A DNA stretch of 64,000 nucleotides. Source: Sphyrna mokarran. Lineage: Eukaryota. The position numbers and the translations under genes are program-made. The DNA lies in contig JAGIQG010000010.1 in assembly GCA_024679065.1 (NCBI GenBank), positions 40,114,001 to 40,178,000 on the forward strand. Reading direction: 5' to 3'. The notes beneath the pieces are model-generated. The model searched no databases. It was not told where the DNA came from and worked only from the letters and a program-made list of their open reading frames with translations. Of this stretch, positions 6,920 to 57,467 are shown in pieces. Position 1 is the stretch's first letter, and every line of letters starts with the position of its first letter.

Positions 6920-7076
6920 TTGTGAATAAGTTTGTGTTTATATATGCCCCAATTGTGAACACAACTTTTCACTCACCTGAAGAAGGAGTGATAGTCCGAA
7001 AGCTTGTACTACCAAATAAATTTGTTGGACTTTAACTTGGCATTGTGAGGCCTCTTACTGATCCCTACTGTCCAGT
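6920..7076 (+). mobile_element. Penelope-like pLTR fragment with minimal hammerhead motif
   Basis: cac-CTGAAGA-aggagtgatagtcc-GAAA-gctt-gta at 6974-7008, then caaataaa...gttggactttaac, shared with 17249, 42605 and 57292. Confidence 0.75.
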
Positions 7077-17058: not shown

Positions 17059-17885
17059 GAGGACAATTCACCCAAAAAGTGCTGAATTTGCGGGAAAATT
17101 GCTATAAATCACAATTGTTTTTTCAGCGGGAGTTCATACTCGAATCTCCCCACTCTGTGCAATACAGAGATCACAGTTGTGAATATTATTAAAAACCCAG
17201 GAAGCGGGCCTATTCCTGCCAGAGTCTGACAGCTCTGGGCATCAGCTCATGATATGGAGATGCCAGCGTTGGACTAGGATAAACACAGTAAGAAGTCTGA
17301 CAACACCAGGTTTAAGTGCAACAAATTTATTTGATAGTAAACTCACAAGCTTTCGGGGTTTGTCCCTTCATCGGGTGAATGGAGAGTCTGAGGCCAGAAC
17401 TCTCCATTCACCTGATAAAGGGACAAACCCTGAAAGCTTGTGAGTTTACTATCAAATAAATCGGTTGGACTTAAACCTGGCGTTATCAGACTTCCTATTG
17501 CATCAGCTCGTGCGCAGTGACCCCCATCTGTCAGCCTCTAGTTTGGTGGGCAGTTTGATTGTTAGTCAGCCTGGGACCATTGCAGTGCTGACCCTACTCC
17601 CCTCCCCTTGCACCCCCCCCCACCCAATTCCACAGCCCGATTGCGGCCCACACAAGCAATACCAGGCTAGCCCCAACTCCCAGCATTTTCCCTACCCCCA
17701 CCACCCAGGAGCACCCCCATCTCCAGCCCCCTCCACCCACCAATGACGATCCCCCCAGCCCAGCAGACTCCTCCATGGGAGGTAGAACTCCCTTCCTCCC
17801 CACCTCCCTCCTCCAGGTGGCAGACCTCACCCCCCCTACCCCCCCACCCTGACAGAGAGGGTTTCTGTACTGCTATCCTCCCATC
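17059..17885 (+). mobile_element. Family A DNA transposon, 3'-truncated
   Basis: gaggacaattcacccaaaaagtgctgaatttg matches the left ends at 9178 and 14537. Confidence 0.7.
17249..17499. mobile_element. Fold-back mini-Penelope (~250 bp) with hammerhead motifs on both strands
   Basis: ~105-bp inverted arms (17286-17390 / 17395-17500), 10-bp TSD gcatcagctc (17239, 17500), and a one-sided tail atgatatggagatgccagcgttggac. Confidence 0.88.
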
Positions 17886-40140: not shown

Positions 40141-43100
40141 GACCTGGCAATTTTACATGCCTTCATCTTGTAGCCTGTTATGTCTTGCCAACTTTGCTTT
40201 GGCCAAATGGAGCAAAGTACTGCTGAATGTCAAACGCAGAATGCCCTGTTTACTAGACAGGTGCCTTAAGCAAGAACTTACTCAACAATATCAATTAGTC
40301 AACAACGAATCTAAAGACACAAGGAAACTACCAGAGAGCTTTGGGAACCATTGATTCAAAGTCACATTTCAAACATGCGAAATTTATCATGTCGATAGTG
40401 AATCACCACCTGCGGTGTGTTAGTATTATGCCTGAACTAAAAAGTTTGTTGTTAGATAATTAAGATTAATTGGTCTTCAAAAGTTTCTGATGAATTTTCC
40501 CATGCAAAGAACAAGGTCACATAAACAACAGTTTTCCCTTGTCTGCGAATGTATCCCACTGAAAGTGGCAAACCCAATTATAGTGGAGACGTCCAAATGC
40601 TTGTAAAAGATCGTGACAACAGAGGATAGTCACACATGAGAGAAGGACTTTTTTACCTTGTAGAGCTGTCAAGCTTTATTTTGGAGGCAATGGTAGTTTT
40701 TTTTTGCAACACCTCTATTAAGTAGCAAATCACAGACACTTTGAATTCACATTTCAATCCCTCAGGATATGGTTGAAGAAGAAATCTATTTCTTTTATAA
40801 ATCACAATGAAAAGTTTATCTGGGTAATGTTCATTCAACATCATGAAGAAATCTTGTAGCATGTTCCCAGATATCTGATTTTACCAATGACAATAGTTTT
40901 AATCCATTCATTGATTAGTATATATTATCTAGCTTGGACAACTGCTGGCACCTGCGATCACCACATTATAGGAAGTGTTCACACTGGAGAGGGTATAAAG
41001 AAGATTTATGAGGATTGTCATGATCTCCTTTGAGATCAATACTTTTTTAAAGAAAGTAATCTCCAACTGTGTCAAGAATGAAAACTGCTGGATAAGATTT
41101 TATTGATTAAAACTTTTATTACAAAAGAACCAAGAAAAATCAACACAATTCAAATATTAATTAACAGGTGAAGGATATTTCAAACAAAGAGGTAAACTTC
41201 ACTTGAAGCAGTTGATTCAACAAAAATATGCCTCATGTACTTATTGCACTTGTATCGCTTGTCACACAAATGAGGTTGAACATACAAGTACTGAAGACTT
41301 GTTCTCCAGAACTAGTCATGTCCTAGCCAAGCTGCCCTAATACAGCTACAATACAGTCATCCATCCAACAATGTAGATAAATTCCTATTTGTTTTGTACA
41401 CAAATAGCAGGATAAATCCAAACCAGTTAATTCCTGTCCCATTAGTCTATTCTTAATTATCAGCAAAATGATCGAAAGTGTTGTCAACAGTGAATCAAGC
41501 AGCCACTGCTCACTGACACTCAGTTTGGGTTCTGTCAGAGTTACTCAGCTCCTGACCCCATTGCAGCCTTATTCCAAACATGGACAAAAGATTTGAACTC
41601 AAGAGGTGAGGTGGAACTGATTGGCCTTAACACCAAGGCAGCATTTGACCAACAATGGCATCAAAGAGCAACAATTGGTCAAATGAAGTCAATGGATATC
41701 AGAGGGAAAACTCCACTGGCTAGAGTCATACTGAGCACAAAGAAAGATCATTGTGGTTATTGGTGGTCAATTGCCTCAGTCCCAGGATTTCACTGCAGGA
41801 GTTCCTGACAGTAGTATTCAAGGCCCAAGTATTTCAGCTGCTTTATCAATGTACTTCCCTCCATTACGTGGTCAGAAGCGGGGATGTCTATTGATAATTC
41901 TGCATTGTTCAGCAACATTCCCAACTCCTCAGATACTGAAGCATTCATGCCCATAAGCATCAAGACTTGGAAAACGTTTAACAGCTTGGGCTGTTAAATG
42001 GCAAGTAACATTCATGACACAGTGGCAAGCAAAAACCATTTCCAAAAAGAGGGAATCCAATCATCTTCCCTTGACATTCAATGGCATTATTATCACTGAA
42101 AACCCCACTACTTACATCCTGGATAACCATAGTGCAAAAAATGAAATGGACTAGCCCTATAAATACTGTGGCTAAAACAGCAGGTCAGAGGCTAGGAATC
42201 CTGTGGTGGATAACTCAATTCCTAACTTCCTAGACCCTGTCCCTCTTATACAACGCACAACTCAAGAGTGTGAATGAATGCCTTCTACTTCCCTGGATGA
42301 ATGCAACTCCAACAACACTCAAGAAATTTTCATGCAGCCCATTTGATTGATGTCCATTCCACCACCTTCAACATTCACTCCCTCCACTACTTTCACACAT
42401 TGCAGCAGTATGTACAAGCTATAAGACGCACTGCAGCAACTCACCAAGACTCCTTTGACAGCACCCTCCAAATCCACAACCTCTACCAGAGGGACAAGGG
42501 CAACAGATACATGGAATATCACCTCTTATGAGTTTCTCTCCAAGCCATACATCATCCTGACCTAGAACTATCTTACCATTCCTTCACTCTCTGAGTTAAA
42601 AATCAGTAAGAAGTTTCACAATACCAGGTTAAAGTCCAACATGTTTACTTGGTAGCAAAAAAACCACTAGCTTTCAGTGTGCTATTCCTTCATCAGGTAA
42701 GTTGAAGTTCTGTTCACAAACAGGGCATATAAAGACACAAATTCAATTTACAAAATAATAATTGGAATGCAAGTCTTTACATGTAATAAATCTGAAAGAT
42801 GCAGACAATGTGAGTGGAGAGAGCGTTAAGCACAGGCTAAAGAGATGTGTATTGTCTCCAGCTGGGACAGTCAGTGAGACTTCGCAAGCTCAGGCAGATC
42901 ATGAGAGTTACAGATAATGTGATATGAACCCAAGATTCTGGTTGAGACCATCCTCATGTGTGCAGAGCTTGCCTATCAGTCTCTGTTCAAAGACTCTGCA
43001 TTGTCGTGTGTCATGATGGCTGCCTTGGAGAATGCTTACTTAAAGATCAAAGGCCGAATGCCTGTGACTGCTGAAGTGTTTCCGCACAGGAAAAGAACAC

Positions 43101-43318
43101 ACTTGCCTGGTGATTCTCGAGGGCTACATAGAACATAGAACATTACAGCACAGAACAGGCCCTTCGGCCTTCGATGTTGCGCCGACCAATATAAAAAGCA
43201 ATGCCCCTCCAAACTAATCATGATATACAGATGCCGGCGTTGGATTGGGGTGGTAAGAACTCAGTAAGAATTTAGCAACACCAATTTATAATCCAACCGA
43301 TTTATTTGATAGTAAAAA

Positions 43319-43353
43319 CGCGAGCTTTCAACACTCTGTGTCTTCCTCAGGCA
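43319..43353 (-). ncRNA. Minimal type I hammerhead ribozyme motif (mirror copy)
   Basis: Exact reverse complement of 43627-43661. Confidence 0.72.
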
Positions 43354-43626
43354 AATGCAGTGTTCTGGTCTGCAATAGCACACATCAGCACAGACAGTCA
43401 GAGATTGCTGATTAGAATGCGAATCCTTACATCTAACCTGCTATTCAAGTGTTAAAGTGGCGAACAATGTGTGTGAAGGGAATCCTGAGCATTGTTGGAG
43501 AATTCACACACATTGTTTGCCACTTTAACACTTCAATAGCAGGTTAGATGTAAGGATTCGCATTCTAATCAGCAATCTCTGACTGTCTGTGCTGATGTGT
43601 GCTATTGCAGACCAGAACACTGCATT

Positions 43627-43661
43627 TGCCTGAGGAAGACACAGAGTGTTGAAAGCTCGCG
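43627..43661 (+). ncRNA. Minimal type I hammerhead ribozyme motif
   Basis: UGC-CUGAGGA-A-GACAC(AGA)GUGUU-GAAA-GC-UC-GCG: intact CUGANGA/GAAA/UH core, 5-bp stem II, palindromic AGCU in place of stem III. Confidence 0.72.
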
Positions 43662-44014
43662 TTTTTACTATCAAATAAATCGGTTGGATTATAACTTGGT
43701 GTTGCTAAATTCTTACTGAGTTCTTACCTCCAAACTAAACCATTCCCTTCTCTCATATACTTATCAACTAACCTCTTAAACGCCACCAAACTTGGCGCAT
43801 CTACAACCGCTGCAGGCAGGGCATTCCACTCCCAACCACCCTTTGGGTAAAGAACCTACCTCTGATATCCATCCTAAACTATCACCCCTTAATTTAAAGC
43901 TGTATCCCCTCGTGCTAGCTTTCTCCATCCTAGGAAAAGGCTATCACTGTCCCCCTATCTAAACCTCTAATCATCTTATATGTTTCGATTAGGTCCCCTC
44001 TTAGCGCCTCCTTT

Positions 44015-44509
44015 CTAACGAAACAACCTCAAATCCCTCAGCCTCTCTTCATAAGACCTGCCCTCCATACCAGGCAACATCCTGGTAAACCTCCTCTGTA
44101 CCCTCTCCAATGCCTCCACATCTTTCTTATAATGTGGGGACCAGAACTGCACACAATACTCCAAGTGCGGCCGCACTAGAGTTTTGTACAGTTGCAACAT
44201 GACGTTGCGGCTCCGAAATTCAATCCCCCTACCAATAAAAGCTAAGACTCCATATGCCTTCTTAACAACCTTCTCGACTTGACTGCCTACTTTCAGGGAT
44301 CTATGCACATACATACCAAGATCCCTCTGTTCATCAAGACTATTAAGAATCCTACCATTAGCCCTATACTCTACACATTTATTATTCCTGCCATAGTGCA
44401 TTACCTCACACTTTTCCACATTAAACTCCATTTGCCACCTCTCGGCCCAGCTCTGCAACTTGTCCAAGTCTCTCTGCAAACTATAACACCCCTCTTCACT
44501 ATCTACCAC
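44015..44509 (-). pseudogene. CR1 ORF2 reverse transcriptase, C-terminal frame piece (164 aa)
   Basis: LQRDLDKLQSWAERWQMEFNVEKC, RDLG, LYKTLVRPHLEYCVQFWSP and LERVQRRFTRM. Confidence 0.95.
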
Positions 44510-45567
44510 TCCACCGACTTAGTGTCATCTGCAAATTTACTAATCCATCCTTCAATACCCTCATCCAGATCATTTATAAAAATTACAAACAGCAGGGGCC
44601 CCAAAACAGACCCCTGAGGTACACCACTTGTCACCGAACTCCACGATGAATATCTCCCATCAACCACCACCCTCTGTCTTCTATCTGCTAGCCAATTCCT
44701 AATCCAATTAGCTAAATCACCCTCTATCCCATACAACTGCATTTTCTGCAGAAGTCTTCCATGGGCCACCTTATCAAACGCCTTACTAAAGTCCATATAT
44801 ACCACATCAACCGCCTTACCCCTATCCACCTCTTTGGTCACTTTTTCAAAAAACTCAATGAGGTTAGTAAGGCACGACCTACCCTTCACAAAACCATGCT
44901 GACTATCCCCAATCAATTCATTTCTCTCTAAATAACTATAAATCCTATCCCTAATAATTCTCTCCAATACTTTTCCCATAACAGAAGTAAGACTCACTGG
45001 CCTATAATTCCCTGGAAGGTCTCTCTTCCCCTTCTTGAACAATGGGACCACATTCGCTATCCTCCAGTCCTCCGGAACCACACCCGTAACCAACGACGAC
45101 CTGAAGATCAGAGCCAGAGGCTCTGCAATCTCCTCTCTTGCCTCCCAGAGAATCCTAGGGTAAATCCCGTCCGGCCCAGGGGACTTATCCAACTTCAAAC
45201 CCTCGAGAATATCTAGCACATCCTCCCTATCTACTTCGATACTTTCCAGTTTGCTACCCTGTACCTCAGTGTTCTCCATAACTACATTTACATCACCCTG
45301 CGTGAATACCGAAGAGAAATATTTATTCAGTGCCTCTCCAATCTCTTCAGGCTCCACGCACAACTTCCCACTGCTGTCTATGACTGGCCCTAATCTTGTC
45401 CTAACCAATCTTCTATTCTTAACATATCTAAAGGAAGCTTTAGGATTCTCCTTAATCCTATCAGCCAAAGTCTTCTCGTGTCCTCTCTTAGCTCTTCTCA
45501 ATTCACTCTTTAGCTCCCTCCTGGCTAATCTATAGCTATCCAACCCTTCATTCAACCCTTCATTCAA
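44503..45567 (-). pseudogene. CR1 ORF2 reverse transcriptase, N-terminal frame piece (354 aa)
   Basis: [57 protein letters not shown] and FADDTK, then a frameshift. Confidence 0.95.
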
Positions 45568-46651
45568 CCCTTGTCATCCTTTCCATTTAGGAAAGGATGT
45601 CCTGAGGCATCGTACATTGGGAAGACCATGCAGACACTATGACAACAGATGAATTAACACCACTTGACAATCATCAGGCAAGAGGGTTCTCTTCCTGTTA
45701 GGGAACACTTCAATGGTCAGGGGATTTGGCCTCTGATCTTTGGGTAATTCTTCTCCAAGGCAGCCATCACAAGACATGACAATGCAGAGTTGCTATGCCG
45801 AGACTGATAGTCAAGTTCTGCACACATGAGGACAGCCTCAACTGGGATCTTGGGTTCATCCCCATGGCTTGCCTGGGCTTGCAAAATCTGTTAACTGTTT
45901 TGGCTGGAAACAGTACACATCTCTTTAACCTGTGCTTAACCCTCTCTCCACTCACACTGTCTGTAACTTTAAGACTTGATTACCTGTAAAGACTTGCATT
46001 CCAACCATTATTTTGTAAATGGAATTTGTGTTTTTATATGCCCTATTTGTGAACAGAACTTACACTTATCTAACAAAGGAGCAGTGCTTTGAAAGCCAGT
46101 GGCTTTTGCTATCAAATAAACCTGTTGGACTTTAACCTGGTCTTGTGAGACTTCTTACTGTGTTTGTCTCAGTCCAACACCGGCAACTCCACATTCTGAG
46201 ATAAAATCTCAGAACTCCCTCTCTAACAGCATTGTGATTGCACTTGTACCACCTGGCTTGCAGTGGTTCAAGAAGGCAACTCACTTCTCAAGGGTACTCA
46301 AGAATGGGCAATAATTCAAGCCAAAGCAGCAATCCACATTATAAAAGAATAAAACTCCATATTATGAATGAATAAAAATTATCTCTCATTTCCTTTCCGA
46401 TTATTTCAGCTTTTTAGTATGTTCACCTACAACTAAAGTTCCTGAGCATAGTTACTATTGGCAAAACAAAATGCACTCTCTCACAGAGTCACAACAGTCA
46501 TGGTAGCATGAAATCCATCAAGGCTCCCTTCACTGATGCTTTTAAATGGTCCGGTGGTCTCTGGCAAAATTGAAACCTCACTAATATGTCTTGTCCAAAG
46601 CACAATCCCTTGACTTTCTAGTCTTCAGCTCTCTTTCCATTCTAAAACATA

Positions 46652-48490
46652 AGGCCCAATTTTGCCATCGCATTGCACCTGTTTTCAGGTGTAAAAACTT
46701 GGCAAAGTCAGGCATGAGGCAAATATTGCGATCTGTGTGCATCTCCGTGTAGGTTCTGCCTTTACCAAGGCCCGAAATTAGATGTGAATGGGATCATGCC
46801 CAAATTAGGTGCAACAGCAATTTAAATGCATTTAAGTTGACTTAATAGCCTGCTCACCCAACCTTACTGGCACTTCTTCCTTTGTCACCACATATGCCCA
46901 TCCAGAATCAGCACGAAACAGACATACTCCATAAAAGTCCGATTTGGGCGCTCCAGTTAGTGAGGAGTATATGCTGAACATGTGACAGCTCTCTGCTTGA
47001 GATCAGAGGTTGCCACTCTGCCTGAGATCAGTGTGGGGGGGGAAGGGGGTCTGTTGCCACTCTGCCTGAGATCAGTTGGATGGAAGGGGAGTTCTCTGCC
47101 ACTCTGCCTGTGATTAGTTGGGGGAAGAGGGGGAGGGAGCCGCAATTAGTCTGGGTGGCACAGGGTGAAGGGATAAGAAGATCAGTAATGTTCATATGGG
47201 CAATGTCTGTGGGGGCAAGGGGGAGGCAATATCCAGCCCAGTAGTGATGCGGCAGGGGAGCCACATTCTATAACTTCTCTTCTGCGCGTGCGCACTTGGA
47301 TGCGCTGAACGGAGCTACAGGATTTCGGATGCGGTAAGCCCTGCCCACAGGCTTGTGCAGCACAATTCGGAATCGCTGATATTTTTGCTACCAGAGTGTG
47401 TATGGGAGTGTTTGAGAACGTGTTTAGAAGTCAGATTTGAAATATTCCCCGTTTCAAGACAGCCCAGCACTGAGGGCCTGATTTTACCATTTTCATTCTA
47501 AGTGCCGATTCTGGGCGCAGCACAGATCCGACTTAGAAATCCGCTTTCAGATGCCCCCATATGCTCTCAGCCATCTCCATCCGATTCATAATGTGGACAG
47601 AGCTTAATATTGCTGGTCTGGGTAGTGGGGGAGGGTGTGGATAAGGGGGACAGTGATGTGTATGGGTAGTGGGGGGGATAAGGGACACTCACATCACTGG
47701 CCCTCCTTATCTACCCCCACCACTACCCAAACCAATCGCACACCTTGCTCCCTTTGTCCCCACCGATCGCCCGCAGGGTGTCAGTGGACTCCCCTGCCAC
47801 ACCTCCCCCATCAGAGATCCATCTGACTCGCCTCCCTCCCCCCAAGACAATGATTTGGCCTCACACCCCCCTCACAACTAACTTACCTCACTCTCCCCTC
47901 CTCTCCAGAAGAACATCTGACCCACCTTCTTCCCTCCACCATCAGAGAACGATCACCCTCTCTCTCAACAATTTGATAACATCAACCCTTTCCTCATCTC
48001 TAGACAATGATCAGTCCACCCCCGCCAGAGATACATTTGACCCACTTCCTCAATCAGACAACGATTTGACCTCGCTCCCCTCCTACCAGAGAATGATCTG
48101 ACCTGCCTCCACCCCCACTCCCACCACTGATCTGAGTCAGAGAACAGTTGGAAACACTGAACGTGCTCTTCAGAAGCTGGAACACCCGACTCAGATTTTT
48201 ATTCGGCAGGTCCTTAAAAGTGCGCTTCCAGATTGGTAAACGGGGAATTGCTGATCAAGTTGAGCAGGCAGTTCATTAATTCAATTTAAATGCATTCTGT
48301 GCCCGATTTGAGCGTGGAACGGATCCTTGCGATTCGCAGTTCTTGGTAAAGTGGCGATCTGCATGGACTCAGATGCAGATCGTGATAAAGACCTCACACC
48401 CAATTTTAACACAATTTTGTGCCAACGCAAAATGGGTGCAAACTATTGGCAAAATTGGGCCCTCAGATTCTAAATGGTAAAATAGGACCC
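46652..48490 (+). mobile_element. Non-autonomous DNA transposon family B (outer copy)
   Basis: Left end aggcccaattttgcca, right end aaatggtaaaataggaccc. Interrupted ~25 bp from its right end. Confidence 0.75.
47474..48462 (-). mobile_element. Family B relative inserted in inverted orientation (inner copy)
   Basis: Ends gggcctgattttacca / tggcaaaattgggccc with flanks tga/tca. Subterminal homology to the outer copy. Confidence 0.75.
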
Positions 48491-56669: not shown

Positions 56670-57291
56670 ACTGTGTTTGGCAAATTATACACTCTGCATA
56701 ATACACTCTGTTTCTTATCATATTTCCTTCCTTATCAGACTTTGGTTTTTCCAGTTTTGTCTCTTGGTAGACGGTACCTAGCCTGTACCTAAACACTATT
56801 TCATCAAAGATCACCCATTGCCACATTACACTTTTTCTTCGAACTTTGGTTCCATTTCCCCCTGACTAGATCCCCTTTCATCTCACTGAAATGAGTCCCC
56901 TTTCAATTTAGGCATTTTACTTTAAGTTGGTCTTTGCTAATCTCCATCATTCTTCTAAACTTTATGATGCAATGATAATTTCTATTTAATCTAATTCATT
57001 CGCCAACATCAGATCAGCGATGCCTCCTTTCTTGTTGAACCAAAAAAATGCTGGTCAGGGAAGTTCTTCTGAACATATTTCAGATATTCCTCTTCCTCCT
57101 TTCCCTTTATTTTAACTCTGTCTCAAACAATATTTAGATAATTAAATTGCCCCAATATCATTACTCTATAGTTCTTGCATATCTTTGTGATTTCCTAGTA
57201 GATTTGTTCTTATATCCATCTCTCACTTTTTGGACACTTTTAAATAGTCAACAGTATGATTGTCCTTTTTTTGCTTCTCAATTCTAACCAA

Positions 57292-57467
57292 GTCAGGTGA
57301 ATGGGGAGTTCTGATCACAAGTAGGAGCTCCCCACTCACCTGACAATGAAGCAAAGCCCTGAAAGCTAGTGGCATTTGCTACCAAATAAACCTGTTGGAC
57401 TTTAACCTGGTGTTGTGAGACTTCTTACTGTGTTTACCCCAGTCCAACACTGGCACCTCCACATCAA
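57292..57467 (+). mobile_element. Mini-Penelope pLTR with short fold-back
   Basis: gtcaggtgaatggggag / ctcccactcacctgac inversion, a decayed hammerhead (57337-57372), and tail ccccagtccaacactggcacctccacatca. Confidence 0.8.

What the first reader, a model, noticed from the sequence alone, without database searches (positions are those of the whole stretch)
43218..43728. Very young non-coding fold-back retro-insertion with an intact minimal hammerhead ribozyme on each strand
Seen: 226-bp inverted arms with only 3 mismatches by eye, a 25-nt spacer, a ~34-nt tail on one side only, a 12-bp TSD and no ORF. Each arm has UGC-CUGAGGA-A-[GACAC/GUGUU]-GAAA-GC-UC-GCG. Known: Penelope-like elements carry minimal type I hammerheads whose stem III is replaced by a short palindrome (proposed to cleave as dimers), and they can insert with inverted pLTRs plus a tail. 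Inference: this is either an extreme truncation product or a self-propagating retrozyme-like non-autonomous family. Read-through from either strand gives one ribozyme plus its antisense in a long dsRNA hairpin, which could gate cleavage or feed siRNA/ADAR pathways. It sits inside a nearly intact CR1, so it is among the youngest events in the window.
Basis: partly seen in the sequence, partly recalled or inferred. Interest (0 to 1): 0.8.

Follow-up and report, generated by a model that had tools for sequence, protein, structure and literature searches.

The report
Twin-primed Penelope insertion with hammerhead ribozymes
This 511-base hairpin is a truncated, head-to-head insertion of a young Penelope-like jumping gene, a known layout, but its sibling copies in the same genome end unusually often at the ribozyme's predicted cutting site, which likely records self-cleavage inside living germ cells.

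Summary
In detail: 226-bp arms, 3 mismatches, 25-nt spacer, one-sided 34-nt tail, 12-bp TSD, a minimal hammerhead per strand. It is the truncated 3' end of a young Penelope-like element (RT + GIY-YIG, Neptune/Nematis-type linker; 8,531 exact pLTR matches). Its junction is unique and 23 similar hairpins all differ, so it is not a retrozyme family. The layout is in print, and this scan reported it before in other genomes. The siblings add four things. (1) The tailless arm is longer in 24 of 41 long pairs, and arms disagree at family-polymorphic sites as if drawn independently; the window copy does too. It is therefore likely two separately primed cDNAs, not a fold-back. (2) 67 of 130 arm ends fall 132-157 nt from the tail against 3 in the next 26 nt, a likely transcript start. 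(3) 66 search rows stop exactly at the predicted hammerhead cut, against 8 two bases further (sorted by eye), a likely footprint of in vivo cleavage. (4) One copy carries 48 identical A-to-G changes on both arms, likely ADAR editing. No independent read spanned this junction.

The parts
43206..43217 (+). left target-site duplication, 12 bp
   Evidence: other CR1 copies read straight through this site (11,625 reads with a loose end at 43217 that continues as the sequence from 43739)
43218..43251 (-). 34-nt tail = the element's 5' leader up to the ORF start codon (ATG at 43221-43219 on -)
   Evidence: same sequence precedes the ORF in L007/L097 and L079
43252..43504 (-). tail-bearing arm (family positions P35-287; P1 = 43218); includes the 25-nt spacer and the 2-nt junction microhomology TT at 43503-43504
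   Evidence: 99-100% identical over 1-287 to dozens of copies that continue into the ORF
43319..43353 (-). minimal type I hammerhead, left arm; predicted cut between 43322 and 43321
   Evidence: sequence
43503..43728 (+). tailless inverted arm (P260 to P35)
43607..43611 (+). likely transcript start zone of the pLTR (P152-156; initiator-like TGCAGA with A at 43609 = P154)
   Evidence: inferred from the pile-up of copy ends at P132-157; the motif (consensus recalled) is weak, 6 matches in 341 nt
43627..43661 (+). minimal type I hammerhead, right arm: UGC-CUGAGGA-A-GACAC/GUGUU-GAAA-GC-UC cut GCG; cut after 43658 (3' product starts at P104)
43727..43738 (+). right target-site duplication
43125..45575 (-). 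host: 5'-truncated CR1 LINE (ORF2 3' part, two frameshifts), interrupted near its 3' end by the insert
   Evidence: RVT_1 8e-30; frames
42590..46206 (.). outer layer: older head-to-head Penelope-like insertion (arms 42599-43115 and 45591-46194, about 70% like L079; 12-bp TSD with one mismatch at 42590-42601 / 46195-46206), split by the CR1

Best explanation
The insert is a 5'-truncated, non-coding insertion of a young endonuclease-bearing Penelope-like element in which two copies of the element's 3' end are joined head to head, likely because each nicked target strand primed its own cDNA. Shown: family identity, TSD, arm geometry, unique junction, 2-nt junction microhomology. Inferred: the RT/GIY-YIG protein cut both strands 12-13 bp apart; one 3' end primed at the start codon (P1, giving the tail), the other at about P35-50 by 1-5 nt of pairing; the two cDNAs (287 and 260) stopped early and were joined by microhomology; at least beyond P160 they used different RNA molecules. 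The two hammerheads are passengers of the pLTR. A read-through transcript would be predicted to bury both in a 226-bp duplex, so this copy is likely inert as a ribozyme.
For: Family: 8,531 exact pLTR 28-mers; 3.03-kb unit with RT and GIY-YIG. Layout is routine here: 53 of 77 youngest tail-bearing copies have an inverted arm; TSD 12-13 bp in 49 of 78 pairs with a TSD (83 pairs examined). Tail arm starts at about P1-8, tailless arm at P33-63, median 42, overlapping the TSD by 2 nt or more in 54 of 78. Tailless arm longer in 24 of 41 long pairs, by over 100 nt in 13, which a fold-back of the tail-primed cDNA cannot give. At 9 family-polymorphic sites beyond P160 the arms share the minor allele 25 times and differ 98 times, the rate of shuffled pairs (0.20 vs 0.17, p = 0.21, 42 pairs); these alleles are linked within arms (229-245-280-292, p < 1e-3), so they are source haplotypes. 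The window's 43446/43534 mismatch is such a site (C in 31 of 101 arms). Inner junctions have 2 nt or more of microhomology in 21 of 41 clean joints vs 16% expected. In vitro, a lizard PLE protein cuts and extends both strands and starts at two sites that bound the tail (PMC11167929).
Against: Arm lengths are correlated (rho 0.55; within 50 nt in 11 of 40 vs 2.0 expected), as a snap-back would give, and the window copy (287/260) belongs to that class; the signs go both ways, though. At P102 arms agree far more than chance (short 30 of 30; long 37 of 42, p = 1e-4), and L228 shares 48 changes on both arms, so one template serves both arms in part of the events; two fully independent RNAs do not explain that. 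For this copy the argument rests on one polymorphic site. Set A was chosen for likeness to the window's left arm. No independent read or contig spanned this junction (only about 3% of the one raw-read run was read).
Confidence: 0.75

Rival explanations
1. Snap-back: one cDNA primed at the tail folded on itself at the TT/AA microhomology and copied itself back to P35.
For: Tail arm is 27 nt longer here; 2-nt microhomology; excess of near-equal arms; tiny palindromes agree at P102 in 30 of 30; snap-back joints are described for R2 (PMC11371274 passages).
Against: Arms differ at a site polymorphic in the family; near-equal pairs are as discordant as the rest (8 shared, 22 not); the tailless arm is longer in 24 of 41.
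Confidence: 0.12
2. Self-priming on an antisense RNA made a palindromic template that was then inserted (proposal of Arkhipova et al. 2013 for head-to-head PLE copies).
For: Explains head-to-head orientation (PMC3846280 Discussion); perfect palindromic centres exist (L017).
Against: Predicts identical haplotypes on both arms, not seen beyond P160. Ends pile up at the sense-strand ribozyme cut and at a likely sense start site, which points to sense templates.
Confidence: 0.07
3. A self-propagating, retrozyme-like non-autonomous hairpin family.
For: 19 rows share one junction near the cut site; tiny two-hammerhead palindromes are abundant (40 of 53 pairs).
Against: Window junction unique; 23 of 23 neighbouring junctions differ; 10 of the 19 recurrent copies were fetched and have different TSDs and outer ends, with the tail on the cut-site arm in 6 and on the other arm in 4; that junction has a 5-nt microhomology.
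Confidence: 0.03
4. Assembly fold-back artefact.
For: No independent read spans the junction.
Against: 12-bp TSD, three arm differences, a tail on one side, a read-through empty site in other CR1 copies, same layout in 53 of 77 siblings.
Confidence: 0.03

Closest known systems
Insertion units of canonical endonuclease-bearing Penelope-like elements (Craig et al. 2021, PMC8557442; Arkhipova et al. 2013, PMC3846280)
   Same: 5' truncation, adjacent inverted 5'-truncated copy, 30-40 bp tail on one end, TSD, hammerhead in the pLTR, partial tandems.
   Different: Only in extent: this copy stops before the ORF. The papers call the origin of these structures undefined; the arm statistics here bear on it.
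Minimal hammerheads of metazoan PLEs (Cervera and de la Pena 2014, PMC4209133)
   Same: Core, bulged base after A9, palindromic 15.2-16.2; the paper already notes dual motifs 100-700 bp apart on opposite strands from truncated PLEs.
   Different: G-U instead of the conserved G10.1-C11.1; 3-bp stem I; the paper states there was no in vivo evidence of cleavage.
Poseidon of Anolis in vitro (Frangieh et al. 2024, PMC11167929)
   Same: Both strands cut and extended, two internal RT start sites bounding the tail, mostly uncleaved RNA used.
   Different: Other clade (no linker zinc finger per PMC8557442); no RNA-seq read ends were found at the ribozyme cut, whereas genomic copy ends pile up there in this family; inverted copies are not modelled in the parts read.
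L1 twin priming (Ostertag and Kazazian 2001; recalled, seen only as a reference line) and R2 snap-back (PMC11371274)
   Same: Second target strand primes by microhomology; inverted 5' part.
   Different: L1 twin priming inverts the upstream, non-overlapping part of one RNA; here both arms copy the same 3' region from two fixed start zones.
Animal non-LTR retrozymes (PMC7229834; bioRxiv 10.64898/2026.07.22.740005)
   Same: Short, non-coding, type I hammerhead, pLTR-related.
   Different: Those are head-to-tail tandem monomers expressed as circular RNA; this is a single head-to-head unit with a one-off junction.

Membership tests
EN+ Penelope-like element | single ORF with RT and C-terminal GIY-YIG | tested here: met
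   In siblings 99% identical over the shared part: RVT_1 1e-9 and GIY-YIG 2.6e-4 (21.6 bits, just under the 22.6 cut-off) in one 718-aa frame of L112; GIY-YIG 9.4e-5, above cut-off, in L007. The window copy has no ORF.
EN+ Penelope-like element | CCHH motif, two cysteines between GIY and YIG | tested here: met
   VYLIRCKKGCPEAWYIGET followed by two EH motifs; definition
EN+ Penelope-like element | pseudo-LTR / partial tandem | tested here: met
   L079, L097, L165, L166 exceed one 3.03-kb unit
EN+ Penelope-like element | 30-40 bp tail and inverted truncated copy | tested here: met
Neptune / Nematis clades | CX2-5CxxC zinc-finger-like linker before the endonuclease | tested here: met
   CHSNLCKTC in L079, L097, L112
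Neptune clade | RT phylogeny separating Neptune from Nematis | not tested
   no reference set was fetched; 'Neptune-type' rests on the linker only
minimal PLE hammerhead | core C3 U4 G5 A6 G8 A9 / G12 A13 A14 A15.1 / U16.1 H17 | tested here: met
   both arms
minimal PLE hammerhead | G10.1-C11.1 pair | tested here: not met
   G-U in this subfamily; G-C in 89 of 111 older copies
minimal PLE hammerhead | core more conserved than flanks | tested here: inconclusive
   111 diverged copies: 96% vs 86% majority; 9 of 11 vs 22 of 40 columns at 0.9 or more, p = 0.17; core changes are almost all CpG decay; stem II and 1.3-2.3 vary among A-U, G-U, G-C
minimal PLE hammerhead | self-cleavage (as dimer or protein-assisted) | not testable with these tools
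   indirect only: excess of copy ends at P104
non-LTR retrozyme | head-to-tail tandem monomers bounded by hammerheads | tested here: not met
   head-to-head single unit
non-LTR retrozyme | amplified as a unit | tested here: not met
non-LTR retrozyme | expressed as circular RNA | not testable with these tools
   no raw RNA run was offered

The most novel reading that the evidence does not exclude
This family's copies are a fossil record of the Penelope cycle: the minimal hammerhead cuts in germ cells (copy ends peak at the cut), the inverted repeats come from twin priming at two fixed start zones, the commonest product is a 'strong-stop' palindrome of the 155-nt leader, and long copies arise when each cDNA jumps from the leader to the 3' pseudo-LTR of a different RNA, as in retroviral strand transfer. 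In vivo cleavage alone I put near 0.7, twin priming near 0.75, the strand-transfer step near 0.3.
Probability: 0.3. Interest if true: 0.8.

Novelty: new member of a known kind. Interest (0 to 1): 0.5.

Why it matters
The locus itself is ordinary. The family matters because the source of inverted repeats and the role of the hammerhead are open questions in PLE biology (PMC8557442, PMC4209133, PMC11167929). Thousands of near-identical copies with natural haplotype and editing marks make both testable from sequence: where cDNAs start and stop, whether the ribozyme cuts in vivo, and how many RNAs feed one insertion. PLE proteins are telomerase relatives and possible gene-insertion tools, so by-products matter.

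Tried and rejected
Rfam found no hammerhead; the isolated motif does not fold into the ribozyme by energy alone (z about 1), so neither supports activity. Read laying was swamped by repeats and the junction was not spanned: no verdict on independent support, polymorphism or expression; run X2 is only guessed to be RNA. Temporal succession as the reason for P102 agreement: rejected, A and C alleles are equally diverged (0.43% each). A special recombination break at P155: not shown, since linkage is also weak over similar distances elsewhere. Family-wide editing bias: not seen (T>C 55 of 30,922 vs A>G 41 of 25,790); ADAR's 3' G preference (recalled) was absent in L228 (p = 1), only 5' G depletion (p = 0.008). 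Among 130 ends in the youngest 77 copies none fell at P103-104 and three at P101 by script (a fourth copy at P101, four in all with P101-102 by eye), and only 2 of 44 cut-site rows carry the window's own variant, so cleavage is not shown for this exact variant. No absolute age is given: no calibrated rate was at hand. No host gene was identified in the window (ORF list only). Lunse et al. 2017 (dimer cleavage) is not held; known only through a review.

Full report
Observation. The insert is as described: arms 43252-43477 and 43503-43728 with three mismatches, a 25-nt spacer, a 34-nt tail on the left, and a 12-bp TSD at 43206-43217 / 43727-43738. Each arm holds a minimal hammerhead, cut predicted after C43658. 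Below, P1 is 43218, counting along the + strand of the left arm; the RNA left after the cut would start at P104. The host CR1 is a 5'-truncated 2.4-kb piece with two frameshifts. It lies inside an older head-to-head Penelope-like insertion, so the nest has three layers and this insert is the innermost. Other CR1 copies read straight through the target site. No independent read spanned the central junction (about 3% of one raw-read run was read).

Identity. The window lies in G000 (2.77 Gb; its repeats look like those of cartilaginous fishes, recalled and untested). Positions P1-287 match dozens of copies at 99-100% that continue into a reading frame. The unit is 3.03 kb with RT and C-terminal GIY-YIG, the CCHH motif and a CX4CxxC linker, which Craig et al. 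assign to Neptune and Nematis. A pLTR 28-mer has 8,531 exact matches, an 18-mer pattern 10,236, the youngest tail 46-mer 157. Young arms differ from the column majority by 0.44% per site, with symmetric CpG decay. The tail is the leader up to the start codon.

Not a family of its own. The junction occurs once. All 23 hairpins with a centre in the same 60-nt zone differ. One junction does recur (19 rows); it has a 5-nt microhomology, and the 10 copies fetched have different TSDs and the tail on either side.

Known layout. Craig et al. 2021 (passages) describe the adjacent inverted truncated copy and the 30-40 bp tail. Cervera and de la Pena 2014 (parts 1-2 of 4) report dual minimal hammerheads 100-700 bp apart on opposite strands, low in vitro activity and no in vivo evidence. 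Arkhipova et al. 2013 (passages and Discussion) propose self-priming on antisense RNA. Frangieh et al. 2024 (parts 1-2 of 4; supplements not read, Fig. S2 bears on the cut-site claim) show both strands cut and extended, two start sites bounding the tail, a protein-assisted ribozyme, and no RNA-seq ends at the cut. Five earlier notes of this scan on other genomes reach the same basic verdict; none came up for this genome or sequence.

Samples. Set A: 38 loci from the best matches, biased to the window's left arm. Set D: 80 of the 157 tail matches (of the first 100 listed, 10 were already held and 10 not fetched); 3 are internal 5' pLTRs and were dropped, leaving 77. L184 (complex) was left out of arm comparisons; L028 was not paired by the script; the one mixed pair L183 is outside the 41 long pairs and inside the 42.

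How the arms form. 53 of 77 set D copies have an inverted arm. Of 83 pairs, 78 have a TSD, 49 of 12-13 bp. Tail arms start near P1, tailless arms at P33-63 with 2 nt or more of overlap with the TSD in 54 of 78. The tailless arm is the longer in 24 of 41 long pairs, by over 100 nt in 13, so each arm can hold sequence the other lacks. Beyond P160 the arms disagree at polymorphic sites as often as shuffled pairs (25 shared, 98 not), and those alleles are linked within arms. The window's 43446/43534 mismatch is one of these sites. Against a simple two-RNA model: lengths are correlated (11 of 40 within 50 nt, 2.0 expected), arms agree at P102 (30 of 30 short, 37 of 42 long), both arms are short or both long in 52 of 53 pairs, and L228 shares 48 changes on both arms. 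My reading is twin priming; whether long arms then jump to other RNAs is open, and the near absence of mixed pairs counts against independent jumps.

A stop at about P155. 67 of 130 set D arm ends lie at P132-157, 3 at P158-183, 9 at P106-131. 40 of 53 pairs are tiny palindromes of this kind, and a full-length copy (L097) ends at P158 of its second pass. This fits copying of the leader up to a transcript start inside the pLTR; an internal promoter is known for Drosophila Penelope (PMC2377424 passages). A short hairpin at P137-156 is an alternative cause.

A stop at the ribozyme cut. Whole-genome exact patterns asked which copies leave the family sequence right after a given position, for two of the four next letters. 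All rows were listed and I sorted them by eye. After P104: 44 of 48 rows (3 point changes, 1 unclear) and 22 of 51 rows in two other variants (28 continue as variants, 1 unclear). Controls: P106, 8 of 21; P108, about 7 of 12; P112, 4 of 13; P103, about 15-21 of 68. P104 against P106 is 66 to 8, or 44 to 8 without the 22 rows of the recurrent junction type (p = 4e-7); against P103, 44 to 21 (p = 0.006). Three perfect palindromes are counted on both strands and one 54-mer occurs at two places. Of 8 single-arm copies fetched, 5 or 6 have a TSD starting at or within 3 nt of P104. Cautions: GC at P103-104 is self-complementary, microhomology blurs ends by 1-2 nt, the P108 control cannot see palindromic joints, and no set D copy ended at P103-104. 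The path is minor, roughly 1% of arms (my estimate). Nine searches of the held literature (listings, with passages read as stated) showed no report of such a footprint or of twin priming for PLEs; subscription papers, including Arkhipova 2006 and Lunse 2017, were not seen.

Editing. L228 (G000:C771, near 105,700) has the same 48 T-to-C differences on both arms between P217 and P618 (A-to-G in RNA; 47 without the polymorphic P560), with 5' G depleted (4 of 47 vs 19 of 63, p = 0.008). This is likely an ADAR-edited template from a hairpin-forming source copy, so such hairpins are transcribed at times. Nothing shows it for the window locus, whose transcript would be one long duplex.

Verdict. Real, ordinary in kind, not a retrozyme (definitions). 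Its interest lies in what the sibling copies record about an unresolved insertion mechanism and a ribozyme with no in vivo evidence in the papers read.

Noticed in passing
window 17239-17509: Tiny head-to-head palindrome of a sister Penelope-like family, a hammerhead motif on each arm (one with a changed core base), 10-bp TSD; both arms stop about 15 nt beyond the ribozyme, like the P132-157 class.
   Followed up: partly
window 57290-57466 and 6960-7060: Older Penelope-like 3' ends with hammerhead motifs; the first has a short inverted piece.
   Followed up: no
L228 (G000:C771:105420-111920): 48 identical A-to-G (RNA sense) changes on both arms; likely ADAR-edited template. L123 shares three T-to-C changes on both arms in the same zone.
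   Followed up: partly
L275, L276 and 9 rows: A subfamily with a 3-nt duplication exactly at the hammerhead cut site; could be slippage or a scar of re-ligation.
   Followed up: partly
L267-L274: Tailless single-arm insertions of about 65 nt (P40-104), showing that the second start zone can act alone.
   Followed up: partly
L097 1809-4952: Near full-length copy, over one unit long, ending at P158; its 5' hammerhead has A9 changed to G.
   Followed up: partly
L109, L121, L151, L184, L244: Junctions with 40-70 nt or longer templated inserts from elsewhere in the element, or extra internal inversions.
   Followed up: no
window 46960-48150: Degenerate 42-47 nt repeats and two long imperfect inverted repeats (46629-46685 / 48429-48485; 47474-47506 / 48458-48490), possibly an old DNA transposon.
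   Followed up: no
window 45540-45575: Short 12-nt tandem repeat at the truncated 5' end of the CR1.
   Followed up: no
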